Virus record (IMG/VR): IMGVR_UViG_3300045988_149535
Coordinates: 1-42,192 of that record
DNA length: 42,192 bases
Strand: one strand, 5' to 3'
Origin: a virus
Part shown: positions 2,949-35,169 of the stretch, piece after piece
Position numbering within the stretch: the first letter of the stretch is position 1
How the letters are laid out: each line of letters starts with the position of its first letter
The notes under the pieces: model-generated
The model's database searches: none
Told to the model about the DNA's origin: nothing
What the model saw: the letters and a program-made list of their open reading frames with translations, nothing else
Made by a program: the position numbers and the translations under genes

Positions 2949-3716
2949 ATGGCGTTAATTAAAAATTTAATACCAGGAAGTCAATACTCAACTAAGTGTC
3001 CTTATTTAATGACACCGAAAGGAATCTGTATTCATAATACAGCAAATGATGCTCCAGCTATAAATGAAAGAAATTATATGGCTAGAGCAGATAATCAAAA
3101 TGAAGTATCATTTCACATAGCAGTAGATGACAATCAAGCTATACAATGTATTCCATTAAATAGAAACGCTTGGCATGCAGGAGATGGAGGAAGTGGACAA
3201 GGAAATAGAAATTATATAGCAGTAGAAATTTGTTATTCAAGATCTGGTGGAGAGAGATTTATAAAAGCAGAGCAAAGAGCAGCAAAAGAAGTAGCAGCAT
3301 TATTAAAAGAATATGGATGGAATATTAATAATGTAAAAAAACATCAAGATTTTAGTAATAAATATTGTCCTCATAGAACATTAGATATGGGATGGCAAAG
3401 ATTCTTAAACATGGTTCAAATAGAATTAAATAATTTAAATATTAATCAATATATTAAGGAGGAAATTAAAGTGGATTATATAATTCAATATTCAAATTCA
3501 ACAGATCAGGCTATAGCGGAGATAATGGCAGATAGATTAAATTGTCCTACTATTAATTGTTTAAGACCATATGCTTTCTATGGACAATATAAAACAGTAA
3601 TTGCAGTAGGAGAGGCTAAGAATAAAAGTGGATATACTAATGTAGAAATAAAGGGAGCTAATAGAAAAGAAACATTAGATAAAGCTATAGAGTATTGTGA
3701 AAAATTAGGAAAGTAG
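2949..3716 (+). CDS. Endolysin: N-acetylmuramoyl-L-alanine amidase (Amidase_2/PGRP fold) with a clostridial-type C-terminal domain
   Basis: Motifs CIHNTAN, SFHIAVDD, NAWHAGDG, YIAVEICY and KKHQDFSNKYCPHR are typical of zinc amidases of the T7-lysozyme/PGRP family. Confidence 0.92.
   Translation: MALIKNLIPGSQYSTKCPYLMTPKGICIHNTANDAPAINERNYMARADNQNEVSFHIAVDDNQAIQCIPLNRNAWHAGDGGSGQGNRNYIAVEICYSRSGGERFIKAEQRAAKEVAALLKEYGWNINNVKKHQDFSNKYCPHRTLDMGWQRFLNMVQIELNNLNINQYIKEEIKVDYIIQYSNSTDQAIAEIMADRLNCPTINCLRPYAFYGQYKTVIAVGEAKNKSGYTNVEIKGANRKETLDKAIEYCEKLGK
3456..3473 (+). promoter_or_regulatory. Internal in-frame Shine-Dalgarno plus GTG inside the endolysin gene (possible secondary translation start for the C-terminal domain, 3471-3716)
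   Basis: AAGGAGG (3456-3462), an 8-nt spacer, then GTG 3471, in frame with the endolysin (codon 175) at the interdomain linker. Confidence 0.5.
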
Positions 3717-3920: not shown

Positions 3921-5948
3921 ATGAATATTAAGTCTAATATTACTAATGTTACAAACAAAAGCATAAAAAAGCTTATAACAATAAACAACTATAAAGAAGG
4001 TATATGCGAATATATATGGAATAGTTTTGATGCAGAAGCTACGGTAGTTGATATAAAATTTATTTATAATGAACTACATGAAATTGAGTCAATTATAATA
4101 TCTGACAATGGAATAGGTATTAATCGTAAAAGTTTAGACAAAACATTTGGGAGCTTGCTTGAATCTATTAAAGAGAATAAAACAAAAGATTTAGATAGTA
4201 ATGTACATGGGCATAAAGGAAAAGGAAGATATTCATTTATTAAGTTTTCAGAAGAAGCTATTTGGAGTACAATATACAACTCAGGATTAAAGAATATGAA
4301 ATACGAAATAAAAATAACAAGGGATAATTGTATAGAGTATATACCAACTGATGAAGAAAAAACATCTGAACATACTGGAACTAAAGTTATATTAAATAAA
4401 GTTAGTTCTATTAATAAAGAAGATTTAAATGGAAAATTTCAAGAATATTTATCAAATAGATTTGCATGGTTTTTATACTTAAAAAAAGGAAAATCAAGCG
4501 AAAGTAAAATAATAGTAAATGGCAAAGAAATAGATTATTTAAAAAATATTGATAGAAATTTTTCAGAGCAAATTATAGAAGTAATAAATGATAATATATT
4601 TACTATTGATGTGATTAAATGGAATCATAAACAAAATGAGTATTTTCATTCTTTCTTTTTAGATGAAAATTTAAATCAAGTATATAAAAATACGACAGGA
4701 TTTAATAATAAATCTTATGCATTTCCACATAATATATACATCAAATCTAATTACTTTAACGATTTTGTTCCAGCCTTACAGAATAATGATGGTCAAGAAG
4801 TATTTAATTTAGATAAAAATCCTAATGATAAAACTTTTATAGAATTAGAGAAAACAATCTATAAATTATTAGAAAGAAAGACTAAAGAGTTTTTGAAATA
4901 TAATGCTAAAAATAAAATAGTTAATCTTGAAGAAAAAGGATACATGCCTAAGTTTAAAGATAATAAATATGAAAAAATTAGGAAGGACGATTTTATAGAG
5001 GTTTTAGAGGAATTACTAGTAATAAAGCCTGATTTATTTAATAGTAAAAAGAGTGATACTAAACTTATATTAGAATTTATTAATTTGATTCTTGATACTG
5101 ATGAAAGGGAGGGAATATTGAATATTATGGATGATTTAATTAAATTAACTCCTGAAGAAAGAGAAAATCTATATAAGGTTTTAAAGAAAACTACATTAAA
5201 GAAAATAATAAGAACAGTTTCATCTATTCAAGACAGACTACAAGTGATTAATATACTTAAAATGTTAGTGTACGAATATGATAAATTTACTAATGAAAGA
5301 GATCATATTCAAGTAATTATTGAAAATAATTATTGGTTATTTGGAGAAGAATATAATATGGTATCTGCTGATAGAGATTTCAATTATTGTAGACAAAAGT
5401 ATCTTGAAATTACGGAAGGGTTTACAAATGAAATAGATAAAAATAAAAATCCTTCTTATAGAAGAAGACCAGATATTTTCATAACAAGAAAAAGACTTGT
5501 TGGATATGCAGAAAGTACTATGAATGAAGAAAATATTATAGTGGAGTTAAAAGCTCCAAATGTTATCATTAATAAGACTATATATAGACAAATCGAAGAT
5601 TATATGGACATTATATCAACAGATGATAAATTCAATAGTCAAATAAGAATTTGGAAATTTATTATAGTAGGAAAAACTTTAGATGAAAACATAAAGAAAG
5701 AGCATAGCAATTGGAGTGATAAAGGGAAACGATTTTTAGTTAAAAAATCAGGTAATTACGAAATATATGCTATGACATGGGACGATTTATTTAAATCATT
5801 TGAATTGAATAATAGATATATTTTAGAAAACTTAGATATTGATACTGAAAAATTGTCTCTAGAAATAGGTGATAATAAAATAAAGGATAAAGAGTTTGTT
5901 GATTCATTGGTTAAAGATATTATAGATATGAAGAATGAGTTAGTATAG
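3921..5948 (+). CDS. GHKL (Bergerat-fold) ATPase fused to a DUF4263/Shedu(SduA)-like PD-(D/E)XK nuclease domain; candidate prophage-encoded defence protein
   Basis: N-terminal motifs: EYIWNSFDAEA (N box ExxxNxxDA, aa 30-40), SDNGIGI (DxGxG, aa 61-67) and GHKGKGRYSF (G2 box, aa 97-106). C-terminal motifs: NYWLFGEEY (aa 470-478), RRRPD518IFI, IIVE542LK544AP and RQIEDY, which is the layout of a D...ExK nuclease core. GGAG RBS. Confidence 0.8.
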   Translation: MNIKSNITNVTNKSIKKLITINNYKEGICEYIWNSFDAEATVVDIKFIYNELHEIESIIISDNGIGINRKSLDKTFGSLLESIKENKTKDLDSNVHGHKGKGRYSFIKFSEEAIWSTIYNSGLKNMKYEIKITRDNCIEYIPTDEEKTSEHTGTKVILNKVSSINKEDLNGKFQEYLSNRFAWFLYLKKGKSSESKIIVNGKEIDYLKNIDRNFSEQIIEVINDNIFTIDVIKWNHKQNEYFHSFFLDENLNQVYKNTTGFNNKSYAFPHNIYIKSNYFNDFVPALQNNDGQEVFNLDKNPNDKTFIELEKTIYKLLERKTKEFLKYNAKNKIVNLEEKGYMPKFKDNKYEKIRKDDFIEVLEELLVIKPDLFNSKKSDTKLILEFINLILDTDEREGILNIMDDLIKLTPEERENLYKVLKKTTLKKIIRTVSSIQDRLQVINILKMLVYEYDKFTNERDHIQVIIENNYWLFGEEYNMVSADRDFNYCRQKYLEITEGFTNEIDKNKNPSYRRRPDIFITRKRLVGYAESTMNEENIIVELKAPNVIINKTIYRQIEDYMDIISTDDKFNSQIRIWKFIIVGKTLDENIKKEHSNWSDKGKRFLVKKSGNYEIYAMTWDDLFKSFELNNRYILENLDIDTEKLSLEIGDNKIKDKEFVDSLVKDIIDMKNELV

Positions 5949-5970
5949 AGCATATTGAGTTAGTTATAGT

Positions 5971-6000
5971 AAAGCACCCAGAGCAATCTAGGTGCTTTTT
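5971..6000 (+). terminator. Intrinsic terminator of the GHKL-nuclease gene
   Basis: Stem gcaccCag/ctaggtgc (one C-A mismatch), loop agcaat, T5 run. It is a near-identical copy of the terminator at 6159-6185. Confidence 0.85.
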
Positions 6001-6045
6001 GTATTAATAAGGATATAAATAGAGATAAAAAATGCATAAAATAAA

Positions 6046-6074
6046 TTGACACCAATTAAAGGAATAAATATAAT
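6046..6074 (+). promoter_or_regulatory. Perfect-consensus sigma-A type promoter (TTGACA-17-TATAAT)
   Basis: TTGACA 6046-6051, 17-nt spacer, TATAAT 6069-6074. No ORF longer than 3 codons follows. Confidence 0.7.
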
Positions 6075-6080
6075 GAAATG

Positions 6081-6185
6081 GTAATACTTGTTAATAAATC
6101 CATAAAAGCCAGCGGTTAACCTAATACTAAGCTTAACAAGTGTTATATAATTCCCAATAGCACCTAGAGCAATCTAGGTGCTTTT
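6081..6185 (+). ncRNA. Candidate ~105-nt structured small RNA (sRNA-A); 5' end approximate
   Basis: Bounded by the consensus promoter and a terminator. A long stem pairs 6081-6094 with 6133-6146 (core acttgttaa/ttaacaagt). The only ORF is ATG-AAA-TGG-TAA. Confidence 0.55.
6159..6185 (+). terminator. Intrinsic terminator of sRNA-A (27-nt copy of 5973-5999 with 1 mismatch)
   Basis: Perfect 9-bp stem agcacctag/ctaggtgct, loop agcaat, T run. Confidence 0.88.
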
Positions 6186-6211
6186 ATAATGTTAAAAATG
6201 TATAAAAAGTA

Positions 6212-6240
6212 TTGAAAACTAATAAAAGAAAAGATAAAAT
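6212..6240 (+). promoter_or_regulatory. Promoter-like element TTGAAA-17-TAAAAT
   Basis: TTGAAA 6212-6217, 17-nt spacer, TAAAAT 6235-6240. AT-rich context, so it could be a chance match. Confidence 0.4.
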
Positions 6241-6289
6241 ATAAATGAAGGTTGAAGGCTTCGTATAAGATTATTATTATTACTAAATG

Positions 6290-6326
6290 AAATATCACTT
6301 AGTTTACAAGAATTAAGTGATATTTT
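6290..6326 (+). terminator. AT-rich 12-bp hairpin with a short T tail (possible end of an ~80-nt transcript, sRNA-B)
   Basis: aaatatcactta / taagtgatattt with a 12-nt loop, followed by ttttg. Confidence 0.4.
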
Positions 6327-6359
6327 GTCGTATATAAGAATAAAATTTGTAGAAAAATA

Positions 6360-6388
6360 TTGACTATAAAAATTAAATAAAATATAAT
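6360..6388 (+). promoter_or_regulatory. Near-consensus promoter TTGACT-17-TATAAT
   Basis: TTGACT 6360-6365, 17-nt spacer, TATAAT 6383-6388. Confidence 0.6.
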
Positions 6389-6394
6389 TTAAGA

Positions 6395-6507
6395 GTATAT
6401 TCGGTATATATTTGGTATATATATTCTCTCTTATAAGGTTAATATTATTTGAATTCTTTAAAATCACTTTGAAATAACACTCAATTTATGTTGGGTGTTA
6501 TTTTTTT
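6395..6507 (+). ncRNA. Candidate ~110-nt small RNA (sRNA-C); 5' end approximate
   Basis: Promoter at 6360-6388 and terminator at 6473-6507. No credible ORF. Contains the direct repeat ggtatatat twice (6403-6420). Confidence 0.45.
6473..6507 (+). terminator. Intrinsic terminator (+ strand)
   Basis: 12-bp stem aataacactcaa/ttgggtgttatt (one G-U pair), loop tttatg, T7 run. Confidence 0.82.
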
Positions 6508-6513
6508 GTATAA

Positions 6514-6541
6514 AGCAAAAAAAGTCGTCCTAAGACGACTT
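6514..6541 (-). terminator. Intrinsic terminator (minus strand), back-to-back with 6473-6507
   Basis: 8-bp stem aagtcgtc/gacgactt with a 4-nt loop. The A7 run on the + strand is a T run on the minus-strand transcript. Confidence 0.7.
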
Positions 6542-6575
6542 ATACATATAATAAAACCTTATATAACCCAAGGAC

Positions 6576-6604
6576 AGAATAGCATTAAAGATTGTAGGTG
6601 TCAA
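6576..6604 (-). promoter_or_regulatory. Minus-strand promoter-like element TTGACA-17-TATTCT
   Basis: The reverse complement reads TTGACA (6604-6599), a 17-nt spacer, then TATTCT (6581-6576). It would give a ~55-nt transcript ending at the 6514-6541 terminator. Confidence 0.35.
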
Positions 6605-6643
6605 TTATTTCTCTTTTTTTGAATTTCAGTAATAAAAAACAGA

Positions 6644-6672
6644 TTGATGTAAGAACATTTGTTTGGTATAAT
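6644..6672 (+). promoter_or_regulatory. Promoter with extended -10 (TTGATG-17-TGgTATAAT)
   Basis: TTGATG 6644-6649, TG at 6664-6665, TATAAT 6667-6672. Points toward the micro-ORFs and the end of int. Confidence 0.6.
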
Positions 6673-6720
6673 TTTCTTGTAAATTGACTTATCACAAGTG
6701 ACAAAAAGGGGAGATATAGA

Positions 6721-6786
6721 ATGAGTAAAGCAGAAAAAGAGCTATATACAATATTATCAAAGGTTTTAAGTAAAAAACATATATAA
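6721..6786 (+). CDS. Micro-ORF, 21 aa (MSKAEKELYTILSKVLSKKHI), paralogue of 9453-9503
   Basis: GGGGAG RBS 7 nt upstream. The first nine codons nearly match the micro-ORF that follows cro. Confidence 0.45.
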   Translation: MSKAEKELYTILSKVLSKKHI

Positions 6787-6854
6787 AAATTTTAATATTT
6801 TTGATATACTCTTATGTGTTAAATTAAATTACTTGTTTAAATGGAGGTATATAA

Positions 6855-6953
6855 ATGATTAAGAATTTTGATAATAAATCTCTTGAAGAGTTAAAAATAG
6901 AAGGAGAAAATAAACTCTTCTTTATTCATACGTTCGGATGTCCGTTAGTATAA
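6855..6953 (+). CDS. Micro-ORF, 32 aa (MIKNFDNKSLEELKIEGENKLFFIHTFGCPLV); looks like a truncated N-terminus of a Cys-motif protein
   Basis: GGAGG RBS. The ORF stops right after GCPLV. It converges on the end of int and overlaps the candidate attP core. Confidence 0.4.
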   Translation: MIKNFDNKSLEELKIEGENKLFFIHTFGCPLV

Positions 6954-6955
6954 AA
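6924..6955. other. Candidate attP core for the serine integrase (imperfect inverted repeat around the central TG at 6939-6940)
   Basis: The left arm attcatacgttcgga and the reverse complement of the right arm tccgttagtataaaa match at 10 of 15 positions, with the cgga/tccg core perfect. Lies immediately downstream of int. Confidence 0.25.
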
Positions 6956-6985
6956 AAAGAGGATTTTCTTTAATAAGAAAACCCT
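6951..6985 (-). terminator. Intrinsic terminator of the integrase gene (minus strand)
   Basis: Minus-strand hairpin agggttttc/gaaaatcct (one G-U pair) that includes the int stop codon, followed by a T7 run. Confidence 0.7.
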
Positions 6986-8583
6986 ATATTTAAGCCATTC
7001 TTGAATGTGATAGATGTTATTTTTTTATCTAATATATAAATTTCTTTAATAAATGAATTAAAAAATTCTTTTAAAGATTCTCTTTTTAATAATTTAATGG
7101 CGGTTTTGTTATCTACGTTTTTTAAGATTATTTCATTCAAAACTGTATTTAATAATATGGTATCTAATTTTATTTCTTCACTATCTTTATTTTCTAATTT
7201 CATTTCTTCATTTATTTTATTTATATTATCCTGTATTTCTTTTTTCTTTAAAACATAGTCTTTGCTAGACATACTATCTTCATCAAACAAATATAATTCT
7301 TCTAATCTTTTTAAAGCTCTTTTATATTTTTCTAATTCTTTAATTTTTAAATCTAAATTAGAACTTTTGTTGTAATTTTTATTATTAAATGAATAGAAAC
7401 CATGCTTTTTATTTATCATAATATCAAATAAATCTTCACATTTTATTTCCTTAACTCCTAGATTTCTAGAAAGTAAATCGATAAATTCTAAATAATCTAT
7501 TCTATTTTTGCTGTTTATAGAACTTATATTTCTAAGTAACGATGTTATAAAATTATATATAATTTTTTCACTAACAGTTTTCTCTTCACAATTATTTTTA
7601 TTATATCTATTGCTACATACGTATAAAGAGGGCCTAAAACCATCTAAGTGAGGTTTATCTTGTTTAGCATAATAATTCCCCATACAAGAACCACATTTTA
7701 TTAAACCAGCAAATATATGTGTTTTCCCATTAGCTCTAAATTTAGAATTACTTCTTAAAGAATTTCTATCCATTATGTCATTACATTTATTGAAAATCTC
7801 TTTAGAAATTATTGGGGGGTGATTATCTTCTAGCACTACCCATTCATCTTCACTTTTCTTCTTGCCTCTAGCAGATTCTCTGTAATTATACCTATAAGTA
7901 CCTATATAGAATGGATTTCTAATTATATCTGTTATAGTTTTAGTAGTCCATCTTCCATTTCTTTTTGTTTTTATATTATTAGCATTTAAAATATTTCTAA
8001 CTATAGAAGTGGATTCTTCTGTTAAATAAGTATTAAATATAAGTTCTATTGTATTTTTTTCTTCTTTGTTTATAATTGGAAACTTAATTTTGCTATCCCA
8101 TTTATAACCTAATGGTATAGGAGAACCGTTCCACATACCTTTACTAGCTCTATCTAACATTACTGATTTAACTCTTTCGCCAGTAAGTTTTCTTTCTAAT
8201 TCAGCAAATACTAATATTATCTTAAGCATAGCTTCACCCATTGCAGAGGAAGTGTCAAATTGTTCATTCTTACTTACAAAGATGCAATTGCATCTTTTTA
8301 ATTCTTCATACATATCACAAAAATCTAATAAATTTCTTGAAATTCTATCTATTTTCCATACTAATAAATGTGAAAACTCGCCAGCTTTTATTCTTTTTAT
8401 CATATCTTGAAAAGCCGGTCTATCTGTATTTTTACCAGAATATCCTGCATCTTCAAAAACCTCATAATTATTTGTATTTAAAATATACTTAGAATAGTTT
8501 ATAAGCTCTTCTCGCTGTAATGGTAAAGAATCCTTATCAATTTGATGATGAGTTGAAACTCTAGTGTAAATTGCTACTTTCAT
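6970..8583 (-). CDS. int: Large serine recombinase (phage integrase)
   Basis: The N-terminus MKVAIYTRVSTHHQ...SLPLQ is a resolvase catalytic domain. This is followed by a recombinase domain, a zinc ribbon (CGSCMGNYY...YVCSNRYNKNNC) and a C-terminal coiled coil. 537 aa. Confidence 0.95.
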   Translation of the reverse strand: MKVAIYTRVSTHHQIDKDSLPLQREELINYSKYILNTNNYEVFEDAGYSGKNTDRPAFQDMIKRIKAGEFSHLLVWKIDRISRNLLDFCDMYEELKRCNCIFVSKNEQFDTSSAMGEAMLKIILVFAELERKLTGERVKSVMLDRASKGMWNGSPIPLGYKWDSKIKFPIINKEEKNTIELIFNTYLTEESTSIVRNILNANNIKTKRNGRWTTKTITDIIRNPFYIGTYRYNYRESARGKKKSEDEWVVLEDNHPPIISKEIFNKCNDIMDRNSLRSNSKFRANGKTHIFAGLIKCGSCMGNYYAKQDKPHLDGFRPSLYVCSNRYNKNNCEEKTVSEKIIYNFITSLLRNISSINSKNRIDYLEFIDLLSRNLGVKEIKCEDLFDIMINKKHGFYSFNNKNYNKSSNLDLKIKELEKYKRALKRLEELYLFDEDSMSSKDYVLKKKEIQDNINKINEEMKLENKDSEEIKLDTILLNTVLNEIILKNVDNKTAIKLLKRESLKEFFNSFIKEIYILDKKITSITFKNGLNIGFSY

Positions 8584-9036: not shown

Positions 9037-9065
9037 ATTATATAATAACTTCACATTTTTGTAAA
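9037..9065 (-). promoter_or_regulatory. Repressor promoter (minus strand) TTTACA-17-TATAAT
   Basis: The reverse complement reads TTTACA (9065-9060), a 17-nt spacer, then TATAAT (9042-9037), just upstream of the cI RBS. Confidence 0.6.
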
Positions 9066-9068
9066 GCA

Positions 9069-9088
9069 AATTCACAAAATAGTACATT
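9069..9088. promoter_or_regulatory. Operator O1 (imperfect): AATTCAC-N6-GTACATT
   Basis: Shares gcaaattcacaaaa with O3. The right half-site has 2 mismatches. Abuts the -35 of the repressor promoter. Confidence 0.55.
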
Positions 9089-9112
9089 CTAATACTGAAA
9101 ATGGTTCGACGA

Positions 9113-9132
9113 AATTCACGGAAACGTGAATT
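9113..9132. promoter_or_regulatory. Operator O2: perfect palindrome AATTCAC-ggaaac-GTGAATT
   Basis: Perfect 7+7 inverted repeat with a 6-nt spacer in the cI/cro intergenic region. Confidence 0.75.
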
Positions 9133-9209
9133 AATTTGAAGAAATTTAAAGGAAAACCAAGTAAAATAAGAATATATTGCTATTTTGAGCAAATATGATT
9201 AAAAAAGCA

Positions 9210-9229
9210 AATTCACAAAAGTGTGAATT
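9210..9229. promoter_or_regulatory. Operator O3: perfect palindrome AATTCAC-aaaagt-GTGAATT
   Basis: Same half-sites as O2. Overlaps the -35 and spacer of the cro promoter. Confidence 0.75.
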
Positions 9230-9240
9230 GGTGATATTAT
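9212..9240 (+). promoter_or_regulatory. Early rightward promoter TTCACA-17-TGaTATTAT
   Basis: TTCACA 9212-9217 and TATTAT 9235-9240, with a TG extended -10 at 9232-9233. Drives cro and the early operon. Confidence 0.6.
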
Positions 9241-11311: not shown

Positions 11312-11860
11312 ATGGTTAAAACTGAAGATCATTTAGGCTTAGCTAGAAAAGTAGCTTTTGAATATTATAGACATTCAAAAGGTAAATACACATATGATGA
11401 ATTAGAATCAACTGCATATATGGGTTTAATTAAAGCTGCGAATAACTTTGATGAATCTAAGGGATTTACGTTTGCAACTTATGCAATGTCAACAATAATA
11501 GGCGAAGTTAAAAGGATGTTTAGAGACGATAAATGGTATTTTGTAAAACGTAATGTACCTCAAAAAATGCTTTCTTTAAATTTTGTAATAGATAATACAA
11601 ACAATATAGAAATGCAAGAAACATTAATAGATGAAGGAAATGTTGAGGAGAATTTAATTAACTCAGTATTAGTTTCTGAGCTCTTTAAGTTACTAACTCC
11701 AAGAGAAAAGCAAGTGATTTATTTATATTATTATATGGACTTAAGTCAATCTGAGATTTCAAAGAATACAGGGATGTCTCAACCTAATATAAGTAGAACA
11801 ATTAAAAACTCATTAAAGAAAATGAGGAATGAATTATATAATGATAAATTTTTAGCTTAA
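11312..11860 (+). CDS. Sigma-70 family RNA polymerase sigma factor (regions 2 and 4)
   Basis: Region 2-like: YMGLIKAANNFDESKGFTFATYAMSTIIGEVKRMFRD. Region 4 HTH: LTPREKQVIYLYYYMDLSQSEISKNTGMSQPNISRTIKNSLKKMR. Confidence 0.88.
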   Translation: MVKTEDHLGLARKVAFEYYRHSKGKYTYDELESTAYMGLIKAANNFDESKGFTFATYAMSTIIGEVKRMFRDDKWYFVKRNVPQKMLSLNFVIDNTNNIEMQETLIDEGNVEENLINSVLVSELFKLLTPREKQVIYLYYYMDLSQSEISKNTGMSQPNISRTIKNSLKKMRNELYNDKFLA

Positions 11861-34947: not shown

Positions 34948-35169
34948 ATGGGAAATCAAATAGGATGCCCTAAATGTGGAAGTAATAACGTACAAATAGT
35001 AAATGATTCTACTGTAGAAACAAAAGGATTTGGAGCTGGAAAAGGCTGTTTAGGAGCAATATGCTTTGGCCCAATAGGTTTGTTGTGTGGAATGTGTGGA
35101 ATGGGGAAAAGTAAAACAAGCAATAATACATATAGGATGTGTGTAAATTGTGGAGAAAAATTTAAATAA
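34948..35169 (+). CDS. LITAF-like split zinc-ribbon membrane protein (73 aa)
   Basis: CPKCG at the N-terminus and CVNCG at the C-terminus flank a Gly/Cys-rich hydrophobic hairpin (GCLGAICFGPIGLLCGMCGMG). AAGGGGGG RBS. Confidence 0.7.
   Translation: MGNQIGCPKCGSNNVQIVNDSTVETKGFGAGKGCLGAICFGPIGLLCGMCGMGKSKTSNNTYRMCVNCGEKFK

What the first reader, a model, noticed from the sequence alone, without database searches (positions are those of the whole stretch)
6046..6185. Perfect-consensus promoter driving a ~105-nt structured, non-coding transcript next to the defence gene
TTGACA, exactly 17 nt, then TATAAT (6046-6074) is followed by about 100 nt whose longest ORF is 3 codons. The stretch ends in a textbook terminator (6159-6185). 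Bases 6081-6094 pair with 6133-6146 to form a ~14-bp stem around a 38-nt loop that contains the palindrome ggttaacc. Even in AT-rich DNA, a full consensus -35/-10 pair is unlikely to arise by chance. The element lies between the GHKL-nuclease gene and the attP/int region, so it would be transcribed in the lysogen. It could be a regulator or antidote of the neighbouring nuclease, a host-targeting sRNA, or an immunity RNA.
Basis: partly seen in the sequence, partly recalled or inferred. Interest (0 to 1): 0.7.

Follow-up and report, generated by a model that had tools for sequence, protein, structure and literature searches.

The report
Tandem small-RNA cassettes in Clostridium phage
The flagged promoter-hairpin-terminator is real, but it is one of several self-contained small non-coding RNA cassettes lined up at the end of Clostridium tertium prophages; the cassettes occur with or without the neighbouring defence-like gene, are most likely regulatory RNAs made by the prophage, and their target is unknown.

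Summary
TTGACA-17-TATAAT (6046-6074), a 14-bp stem (6081-6094/6133-6146) around a 38-nt loop, and an intrinsic terminator (6159-6186) are all present. One detail is wrong: a 13-codon ATG ORF exists, but it is not conserved.

The element is not solitary. It is the first of three same-strand promoter/short transcript/terminator cassettes (A, B, C; 6028-6511). Related C. tertium phages and prophages carry two to six such cassettes in at least seven combinations.

Eight cassette types share the 5' hairpin. The 5'-arm core AATACTT is invariant, 92% of cells pair, and three pairs show compensatory changes. Their loops are unrelated (6-85 nt).

Among six cassette-A variants, substitutions concentrate in the loop. 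Stem, linker (AAUUCCCAAU) and terminator are nearly fixed.

The array follows three different upstream gene sets, or the endolysin directly. GHKL homologues at 79-81% identity lack it. The "antidote of the nuclease" idea is therefore not supported.

There is no Rfam match, no toxin ORF, and no antisense target in the phage itself.

Best reading: horizontally shuffled "RNA morons", meaning trans-acting sRNAs expressed from the prophage. Transcription and targets are untested.

The parts
5973..5999 (+). Terminator hairpin T1. It terminates the GHKL gene and marks the left edge of the array. It is a near-copy of the cassette-A terminator.
   Evidence: Direct repeat D3, 96% identical to 6159-6185. 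The same T1 precedes the array behind other genes in L004, L007, L022 and L036.
6028..6045 (+). A/T-rich conserved stretch upstream of the -35 (UP-element-like).
   Evidence: Direct repeat D2: 6028-6074 versus 6194-6240, 74% identical. Conserved in the cassette-A variants that carry this promoter type.
6046..6074 (+). Promoter of cassette A (TTGACA-17-TATAAT).
   Evidence: 12/12 match. One of only 3 sites in the window within 1 mismatch of consensus. Identical or near-identical promoter in L002, L004, L007, L022 and L036.
6081..6094 (+). 5' arm of the scaffold hairpin. It starts at or next to the predicted transcription start.
   Evidence: Folding. The 5'-arm core AATACTT is invariant in 12 hairpins of 8 cassette types.
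6095..6132 (+). 38-nt loop, variable, with palindrome GGTTAACC at 6114-6121.
   Evidence: 9 of 38 loop columns vary among six cassette-A variants, against 2 of 65 in the rest of the transcript (Fisher p = 0.002). Loops of other cassette types are unrelated.
6133..6146 (+). 3' arm of the scaffold hairpin.
   Evidence: 15 aligned pairs, 92.1% of cells paired, 3 pairs with changes on both sides, slid controls 33-57%.
6147..6158 (+). Single-stranded linker AUAAUUCCCAAU. Candidate seed, because of its unpaired UCCC.
   Evidence: Unpaired in the MFE and centroid structures. Invariant in all six cassette-A variants. The seed role is inferred.
6159..6186 (+). Intrinsic terminator T2 of cassette A.
   Evidence: 10-bp stem, 5 G-C pairs, loop of 4, T-tract. 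The only variant change (C to T in L002) keeps pairing as U.G.
6194..6332 (+). Cassette B: promoter 6212-6240 (TTGAAA-17-TAAAAT), short unstructured 5' part, 19-bp terminator hairpin 6287-6328.
   Evidence: z = -3.8. Present in L002 and L022. A 1-nt indel between copies rules out the overlapping minus-strand ORF.
6342..6511 (+). Cassette C, a paralogue of B: promoter 6360-6388 (TTGACT-17-TATAAT), terminator 6471-6504 plus T-tract.
   Evidence: (repeats D5, D7). Present in L002 and L022.
6522..6541 (-). G+C-rich hairpin (minus-strand terminator) closing the array. Homology with prophage L002 ends here.
   Evidence: blastn end-point at window 6541; related hairpin after the array in L010.

Best explanation
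Bases 6028-6186 form one cassette ('A') of a tandem array of autonomous promoter/small RNA/terminator cassettes. The array sits in the accessory region between the lysis or moron genes and attP/int of temperate phages of Clostridium tertium.

Each cassette is an 'RNA moron': a housekeeping-sigma promoter, a non-coding transcript of about 90-160 nt, and its own intrinsic terminator.

The predicted cassette-A RNA is about 108 nt, running from roughly 6080 to roughly 6188. It has three parts. First, a 5'-terminal 14-15-bp hairpin that at least eight cassette types share as a scaffold; this hairpin probably also protects the 5' end. Second, a conserved unpaired linker, AAUUCCCAAU. Third, a terminator hairpin.

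The most likely function is a constitutively expressed, trans-acting regulatory sRNA that base-pairs with host mRNAs, or with mRNAs of competing phages. Pairing would occur through the unpaired pyrimidine-rich linker (UCCC against a Shine-Dalgarno-like GGGA) and/or the loop.

Cassettes are gained, lost and recombined between phages through their shared promoters, 5' arms and terminators.

Shown: the anatomy, conservation of the stem, modular shuffling, independence from the GHKL gene, and absence of conserved coding potential. Inferred: transcription, the trans-acting mechanism, and the seed.
For: Promoter and terminator are real and rare in the window. The fold z-score is -5.4.

The window holds three consecutive same-strand cassettes. 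L022 holds six, each with a promoter-like site scoring at least 10/12 on the + strand.

Seven array combinations were seen:
- T1|A|B|C (window)
- T1|A'|A|B|C (L002)
- T1|A'|A|A''... (L004)
- T1|A|A'''|mini (L007, L035, L037-L043)
- T1|A'|A|A'''|mini (L036, L044)
- T1|A|B|C|D|E|mini (L022)
- A|F (L010)
.

The hairpin is conserved across 8 cassette types: 92.1% of cells paired, compensatory changes at 3 pairs, U-A/U-G alternation, slid controls 33-57%.

Within cassette A, substitutions concentrate in the loop (9/38 columns against 2/65; p = 0.002). The linker is invariant, and the one terminator change is a wobble.

No conserved ORF exists: the ATG at 6078 is ATA elsewhere, and an indel breaks the minus-strand ORF.

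The host is C. tertium. The array is found in many isolates and metagenomes: the upstream marker protein is on 52 contigs and in 95 index blocks.

As a precedent, prophage sRNA families with a conserved part and a variable part are encoded at moron insertion sites in EHEC (PMC4104026).
Against: There is no expression data, so transcription is inferred from sequence alone.

No target was identified. No complementarity longer than 12 nt exists anywhere in the phage genome. Duplex energies against 75 ribosome-binding regions are no better than for shuffled RNA. The host genome could not be searched.

The stem is conserved in sequence, not only in structure. One cassette ('mini') keeps the stem with a loop of only 4-6 nt. 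Both points fit recognition of the stem by a protein at least as well as they fit base-pairing through a loop.

Covariation support is modest: 12 sequences, related by descent; 10-13 of 500 shuffles reach the observed score.
Confidence: 0.45

Rival explanations
1. Protein-sequestering decoy RNAs. The functional part is the conserved double-stranded stem (core AAUACUU/AAGUAUU). It would be expressed in many copies from several strong promoters to titrate or occupy a hairpin-binding protein of the host, of a defence system, or of a rival phage. The loops would be mere spacers.
For: The 5'-arm core is invariant in all 12 hairpins although the loops are non-homologous. The 'mini' cassette keeps the stem with a 4-6-nt loop. 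Loops evolve faster than stems. Two to four hairpin-bearing cassettes occur per array. No base-pairing target was found.
Against: No candidate binding protein co-occurs with the array, and its neighbours differ in every context. Cassettes B, C and D lack the hairpin yet sit in the same arrays. The invariant single-stranded linker is not explained.
Confidence: 0.2
2. No functional RNA. The region would be a stack of promoters and terminators left over from decayed morons. Alternatively it serves as a transcriptional insulator at the prophage end, stopping late/lysis read-through into the convergent integrase and cI genes.
For: Five terminator-like hairpins lie within the 4-kb scan of 4500-8500, against 0.6 expected; four of them are between 6159 and 6985. 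The array sits between convergent gene blocks. Cassettes B, C and D have little structure apart from their terminators.
Against: Insulation needs no consensus promoters. The hairpin is kept by compensatory and wobble changes across 8 cassette types. The linker and stem are under stronger constraint than the loop. The array is nearly identical (0-1 differences in 662 nt) in many independent isolates.
Confidence: 0.15
3. Programmable or mimic RNAs for conflicts between genetic elements. The conserved stem would be a scaffold, and the variable loops would carry specificity against other phages (RNA-based superinfection exclusion) or against host immunity (for example CRISPR-repeat mimics of the Racr type, PMC10651486).
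For: The design is a conserved scaffold with a hypervariable insert, arrays differ between close relatives, and the location is among defence-like accessory genes. The loop palindrome GGTTAACC changes to GATTAATC by two symmetric substitutions.
Against: Loops have no significant match in 50,697 GenBank phages, even at E up to 10, nor in the related phage loci held here. Faster loop change is equally explained by relaxed constraint. No CRISPR-like direct repeats are present. The host CRISPR repeat could not be examined.
Confidence: 0.1
4. RNA antitoxin or regulator of the adjacent GHKL-nuclease gene (type III-like), or the sRNA half of a type I toxin-antitoxin pair.
For: It lies immediately downstream of a GHKL ATPase with a nuclease-like C-terminus. 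Type I pairs are common in clostridial prophages (PMC7699646, listed).
Against: The array is present without the GHKL gene in L004, L007, L010, L022 and L035-L044. The GHKL gene is present without the array in L028-L032. The GHKL family is a widespread stand-alone gene. There is no conserved small hydrophobic ORF on either strand. There are no short tandem repeats preceding a toxin gene under one promoter.
Confidence: 0.04

Closest known systems
Prophage-encoded sRNAs at moron insertion sites, e.g. the anti-sRNAs AgvB/AsxR of EHEC lambdoid prophages (PMC4104026)
   Same: Short non-coding RNAs encoded in the accessory ('moron') region of temperate phages. They form families with a conserved part and a variable part, and are present in varying copies among related prophages.
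   Different: No sequence or structure similarity (no Rfam hit). Here up to six cassettes lie head-to-tail on one strand, each with its own consensus promoter. The conserved part is a 5' stem enclosing the variable part. The host is a Gram-positive clostridium. Expression has not been shown.
Morons as defined for phage genomes (independent promoter-gene-terminator units; PMC3594210)
   Same: Own promoter, own terminator, located between lysis genes and the attachment site, shuffled horizontally among phages.
   Different: The payload is a non-coding RNA instead of a protein, and the units are stacked in an array.
Tandem sibling sRNA genes such as LhrC1-5 of Listeria, and UCCC-motif sRNAs of Firmicutes (Rsa RNAs, PMC2790875; LhrC from my own knowledge)
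   Same: Several related sRNA genes in a row, each with its own promoter and terminator. An unpaired C-rich motif (UUCCC in cassette A) could pair with Shine-Dalgarno sequences.
   Different: In those families the seed is the conserved element shared by the siblings. Here the siblings share the stem, and the linkers differ between cassette types. The seed role of UUCCC is untested.
Type I toxin-antitoxin modules of Clostridioides difficile prophages (PMC7699646)
   Same: Small RNAs with strong promoters in clostridial prophage accessory regions.
   Different: No toxin ORF and no overlapping antisense partner are present here.
RNA anti-CRISPRs (Racrs; PMC10651486)
   Same: Small phage-encoded hairpin RNAs, sometimes in several copies, with their own promoters.
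   Different: Racrs are defined by mimicry of the host CRISPR repeat. That could not be checked here, and nothing in the array looks like a repeat-spacer unit.
ToxI-type (type III) antitoxin RNA arrays (my own knowledge)
   Same: Repeated RNA units next to a gene with a nuclease domain.
   Different: ToxI consists of short (about 36-nt) tandem repeats under one promoter, directly upstream of its endoribonuclease, and is processed by it. Here each unit has its own promoter and terminator, lies downstream of the gene, and is dissociated from it.

Membership tests
Any Rfam 15 family | Score at or above the family's gathering threshold | tested here: not met
   No matches at gathering threshold in the window or in L002, L004, L007, L010, L036. 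Best sub-threshold hit was 23 bits against a 43-bit threshold, and it covers only the terminator.
Moron (autonomous transcription unit in a phage accessory region) | Own promoter upstream and own intrinsic terminator downstream | tested here: met
   12/12 consensus promoter and a terminator hairpin. A separate terminator T1 insulates it from the upstream gene.
Moron (autonomous transcription unit in a phage accessory region) | Present or absent as a unit among otherwise related phages | tested here: met
   Seven cassette combinations. L009 and L010 share the upstream gene, but only L010 has cassettes.
Bacterial trans-acting sRNA gene | No conserved coding potential | tested here: met
   The 13-codon ORF loses its ATG in all five other variants. 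The minus-strand ORFs are broken by an indel and start inside terminator stems.
Bacterial trans-acting sRNA gene | A discrete stable transcript is detected | not testable with these tools
   No expression data are available.
Bacterial trans-acting sRNA gene | Conserved unpaired seed complementary to target mRNAs | tested here: inconclusive
   The linker AUAAUUCCCAAU is unpaired and invariant. No target stands out in the phage. The host genome was not searchable.
Structured RNA with a conserved helix | Helix maintained by compensatory or wobble changes | tested here: met
   15 pairs, 92.1% of cells paired, 3 pairs with changes on both sides, U-A/U-G split 6:6 at one pair, slid controls 33-57%. 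Only 10-13 of 500 shuffles reach the observed values, so support is modest.
Type I toxin-antitoxin | Small hydrophobic toxin ORF overlapping or adjacent to the sRNA | tested here: not met
   No conserved small ORF in cassettes A-C on either strand. Only cassette D of L022 has a 22-codon ORF, known from a single copy.
Type III (ToxIN-like) toxin-antitoxin | Short tandem RNA repeats co-transcribed with, and always accompanying, the toxin gene | tested here: not met
   Units have separate promoters and terminators. The array and the GHKL gene occur independently of each other.
RNA anti-CRISPR (Racr) | Sequence and structure mimicry of the host CRISPR repeat | not tested
Operator sites of the phage repressor | Same motif as in the cI/cro control region | tested here: not met
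   The cI/cro region carries AATTCAC...GTGAATT repeats unrelated to TAATACTTGTTA. The stem motif is not enriched elsewhere in the window.

The most novel reading that the evidence does not exclude
The cassettes form a recombination-shuffled repertoire of scaffolded RNAs. A sequence-conserved 5' stem would be recognised by a common, still unknown protein. It encloses a hypervariable insert that gives each cassette a different specificity. Temperate phages of C. tertium would use the repertoire for RNA-based exclusion of rival phages or for disarming host immunity. That would make it a promoter-per-unit, CRISPR-independent analogue of guide or decoy RNA arrays.
Probability: 0.1. Interest if true: 0.8.

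Novelty: new variant of a known kind. Interest (0 to 1): 0.45.

Why it matters
Phage-borne regulatory RNAs are well studied in enterobacterial prophages. To my knowledge, and judging by two full-text literature searches here, they are little described in gut clostridia.

If the cassettes are expressed, C. tertium prophages would carry up to six small RNAs that can be swapped like genes. C. tertium is a common gut commensal and occasional pathogen. This gives a tractable case for studying how new sRNAs arise, duplicate and are exchanged among phages.

The conserved-stem, variable-insert design also raises the possibility of a shared protein partner.

The finding also removes a tempting but wrong link between the RNA and the neighbouring GHKL-nuclease gene.

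Tried and rejected
1. Antidote of the GHKL gene: rejected by the double dissociation.

2. 3' UTR of the upstream gene: rejected. Terminator T1 lies in between, and the cassette follows different genes elsewhere.

3. Known RNA family: none in Rfam.

4. Type I toxin-antitoxin: no conserved ORF.

5. Repressor operators: the motif differs from the cI/cro operators.

6. Invertible promoter: the inverted repeats lie downstream of the promoter and enclose as little as 6 bp. Rejected by reasoning.

7. Antisense target in the phage itself: none found by blastn-short or duplex energies. A first genome-wide duplex scan timed out.

8. Loop matches in GenBank phages: none.

9. Array homologues in GenBank phages and plasmids: only terminator-sized hits.

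10. Pattern scans:
   - IMG/VR held only one true relative, L004. L011-L015 are chance hits in coding DNA.
   - Species-representative genomes gave only a chance hit, L005.
   - Metagenome contigs gave one true relative (L007) and one chance hit (L006).

11. Integrase homologues as anchors: they sit in integrated prophages, where the array is at the other end.

12. More distant relatives of the upstream membrane protein (66-77% identity; the 66% group is named C. cadaveris by its source): no hairpin cassettes.

13. A covariance model of the hairpin found no extra copies beyond those already seen by eye.

Full report
WHAT IS IN THE WINDOW

The window is a 42-kb temperate phage genome assembled from a human gut metagenome (ENA ERZ915976, contig k127_630). 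The gene order around the finding is:
- tail genes
- XhlA (2388-2621), holin (2642-2893), amidase (2949-3716)
- a 675-aa GHKL ATPase with a nuclease-like C-terminus (3921-5948)
- about 1 kb without credible genes (5949-6969)
- on the other strand, a large serine integrase (6970-8583) and a cI-like repressor

The host is Clostridium tertium. A prophage carrying the identical GHKL protein lies next to pilus genes whose products are exact matches to C. tertium PilC and PilM.

CHECK OF THE OBSERVATION

- Promoter: TTGACA-17-TATAAT at 6046-6074, a 12/12 match.
- Stem: 6081-6094 pairs with 6133-6146, enclosing 38 nt that include GGTTAACC at 6114-6121.
- Terminator: hairpin 6159-6182 followed by TTTT.
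- Fold: the predicted RNA folds far better than shuffled sequence (-29.6 kcal/mol, z = -5.4).

The promoter is not an accident of A+T-rich DNA. Only three sites in the 42 kb come within one mismatch of the full consensus. Two are in this intergenic region (6046, 6360). The third is in the cI/cro control region.

One detail is wrong. There is a 13-codon ATG ORF at 6078-6119, not only a 3-codon one. Its ATG reads ATA in all five other variants of the cassette, and it lies at or before the likely start site. The unit is still best called non-coding.

THE ELEMENT IS ONE UNIT OF AN ARRAY

The same strand carries two further promoter/short transcript/terminator units.
- Cassette B: promoter 6212-6240, 19-bp terminator hairpin 6287-6328.
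- Cassette C: promoter 6360-6388, terminator 6471-6504.

B and C are paralogues. The regions upstream of the A and B promoters are related. The cassette-A terminator is a 96% copy of the hairpin at 5973-5999 that ends the GHKL gene. A G+C-rich hairpin at 6522-6541 closes the array.

RELATIVES

Pattern scans and look-ups of neighbouring proteins recovered the array in several other places:
- a viral contig (L004)
- metagenome contigs (L007, L010, L022, L036 and others)
- several C. tertium isolate assemblies (L002, L035, L038, L039, L042)

Seven cassette combinations were seen:

| Combination | Where |
|---|---|
| T1, A, B, C | window |
| T1, A', A, B, C | L002 |
| T1, A', A, A''... | L004 |
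| T1, A, A''', mini | L007, L035, L037-L043 (0-1 differences over 662 nt) |
| T1, A', A, A''', mini | L036, L044 |
| T1, A, B, C, D, E, mini | L022 |
| A, F | L010 |

In L022, six promoter-like sites scoring at least 10/12 lie on the + strand at intervals of about 150-240 nt.

In the window, cassette A carries the promoter that belongs to cassette A' in L002, L004 and L036. That is what a deletion by recombination within the shared 5' arm would produce. The cassettes therefore behave as exchangeable modules.

THE HAIRPIN

Cassettes A, A', A'', A''', E, F and mini all begin with the same stem, though their loops are unrelated and range from 6 to 85 nt.

In an alignment of 12 hairpins the results are:
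- The 5'-arm core AATACTT is invariant.
- 15 pairs can be drawn, and 92.1% of cells pair. With the 3' partner slid by 1-3 columns only 33-57% pair.
- Three pairs show changes on both sides: G-C or G-U to A-U to U-A at the base of the stem, U-A to A-U, and G-C to A-U.
- One pair alternates U-A and U-G, six sequences each.

The wobble pairs argue for selection on RNA rather than on a DNA inverted repeat. The support is real but modest. The sequences are few and related, and 10-13 of 500 column shuffles reach the observed values.

Among six distinct variants of cassette A, 9 of 38 loop columns vary, against 2 of 65 in the rest of the transcript (p = 0.002). The unpaired linker AUAAUUCCCAAU is invariant. 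The single change in the terminator keeps pairing as U.G.

Two of the loop substitutions convert GGTTAACC to GATTAATC. This preserves the palindrome, which hints at loop-loop dimerisation. One variant (GATTAACC) breaks it.

WHAT IT IS NOT

Not the 3' UTR of the GHKL gene. A terminator lies in between. The array also follows a membrane-protein moron (L007, L022, L035-L044), an unrelated 122-aa gene (L010), or the endolysin directly (L004).

Not tied to the GHKL gene. GHKL homologues at 79-81% identity are followed by protein-coding genes and carry no array (L028-L032). The GHKL family is a widespread stand-alone gene found in clostridia and Bacteroidota.

Not a known RNA family.

Not a type I toxin-antitoxin pair. 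There is no conserved small ORF, and a 1-nt indel breaks the only hydrophobic minus-strand ORF.

Not the repressor's operator.

Not a regulator of this phage's own genes, as far as base-pairing can tell. No complementarity beyond 12 nt exists in the phage genome or in the related loci. Duplex energies with 75 ribosome-binding regions equal those of shuffled RNA: the cassette-A loop gives -20.2 against -19.7 +/- 2.2.

The loops do not match any GenBank phage.

MOST LIKELY MECHANISM

Each cassette is an autonomous 'RNA moron'. It would be transcribed from a housekeeping-type promoter with no repressor operator, and so probably expressed in the lysogen. Transcription would end at the cassette's own terminator.

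For cassette A, the 5'-terminal stem would stabilise the RNA and present the loop. The conserved unpaired UUCCC linker is the best candidate for a seed that pairs with Shine-Dalgarno-like GGGA sequences, as in C-rich sRNAs of Firmicutes (PMC2790875). Targets would be host mRNAs or mRNAs of incoming phages.

The nearest precedent is the family of short sRNAs encoded at moron insertion sites of EHEC prophages. Those also combine a conserved part with a variable part (PMC4104026).

This mechanism is inferred. I put it at about 0.45.

The main rival (about 0.2) is that the conserved stem is a decoy for a hairpin-binding protein. This would explain why the stem is conserved in sequence, and why the mini cassette dispenses with the loop.

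A purely DNA-level role as stacked terminators or decayed morons (about 0.15) does not explain the consensus promoters or the pattern of constraint.

DISTRIBUTION AND NOVELTY

The hairpin cassettes were found only in C. tertium phages and prophages. They are common there: the marker protein upstream of the commonest array is on 52 contigs and in 95 index blocks.

They were absent from:
- more distant relatives of that marker protein
- IMG/VR apart from one contig
- GenBank phages and plasmids
- species-representative genomes

Two full-text literature searches turned up no description of such arrays.

I class it as a new variant of a known kind, namely prophage-encoded sRNAs or morons. The new features are the head-to-tail array, with one promoter and one terminator per unit, and the shared stem around a hypervariable insert.

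Interest is moderate. The anatomy is unusual and well supported by comparison. Expression, partners and phenotype are all still to be shown.

Noticed in passing
window 3921-5948 (+): The 'GHKL-nuclease' belongs to a widespread family of about 670-aa stand-alone proteins found in Clostridium, C. difficile and Bacteroidota. Several homologues carry a precomputed PF14082 hit, which from memory is the Shedu/DUF4263 nuclease domain. The window protein itself shows only HATPase_c_3 plus a weak HSDR_N_2 hit, and it matches no PADLOC model.
   Followed up: partly
window 5973-5999 and 6159-6185; L033 1501-1542; L034 1001-1055: The terminator hairpin AGCACCTAGAGCAATCTAGGTGCT recurs at 85-90% identity as a gene-end hairpin in Streptococcus phages MissE2 and Javan502 and in a Clostridium butyricum megaplasmid prophage. 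It is unclear whether this reflects convergence or a mobile terminator module.
   Followed up: partly
L002 3861-4628; L050 4027-4485; L052 3253-3711; L035-L043 about 4427-4912: Integration sites lie inside genes. The L002 prophage, and the prophages in L050 and L052, abut a truncated pilB-type (T2SSE) ATPase gene just upstream of pilC, pilA and pilM. The commonest array-bearing prophage abuts a truncated GIDA-family gene.
   Followed up: no
L022 10471-10539 (+): Cassette D starts with a possible leaderless 22-codon ORF, MEWELASFFLLIMCMYQLRNST, whose ATG lies 6 nt after the -10 box. It is hydrophobic like a type I toxin. Only one copy is known, so conservation could not be judged.
   Followed up: partly
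window 6114-6121: The loop palindrome GGTTAACC becomes GATTAATC in L002 and L010 through two symmetric substitutions. It is AGTTAACC in L004 and GATTAACC in L007. This may indicate a loop-loop dimerisation site, or pairing with AAGGUUAAU in cassette C, which also changes in L002.
   Followed up: partly
window 6721-6786 and 6855-6953 (+): Two small ORFs (21 and 32 aa) with nearby GGAG motifs lie between the array and the integrase gene. The 32-aa one is called as a gene in the source assemblies.
   Followed up: no
window 9040-9235: The cI/cro intergenic region holds several copies of AATTCAC(N)GTGAATT-type inverted repeats, which are likely repressor operators. It also holds the only other near-consensus promoter of the window, at 9037-9065 on the minus strand.
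   Followed up: no
window 6394-6470 versus the ORF start near 34948: The 5' part of cassette C gave a duplex energy of -31.9 kcal/mol with one ribosome-binding region, against -25.8 +/- 1.9 for shuffles. It may be an artefact of TATATA-rich sequence.
   Followed up: no
window 11312-11860 (+): The early region encodes a sigma-70-family (ECF-like) sigma factor, according to Pfam annotation of the identical gene in L001.
   Followed up: no
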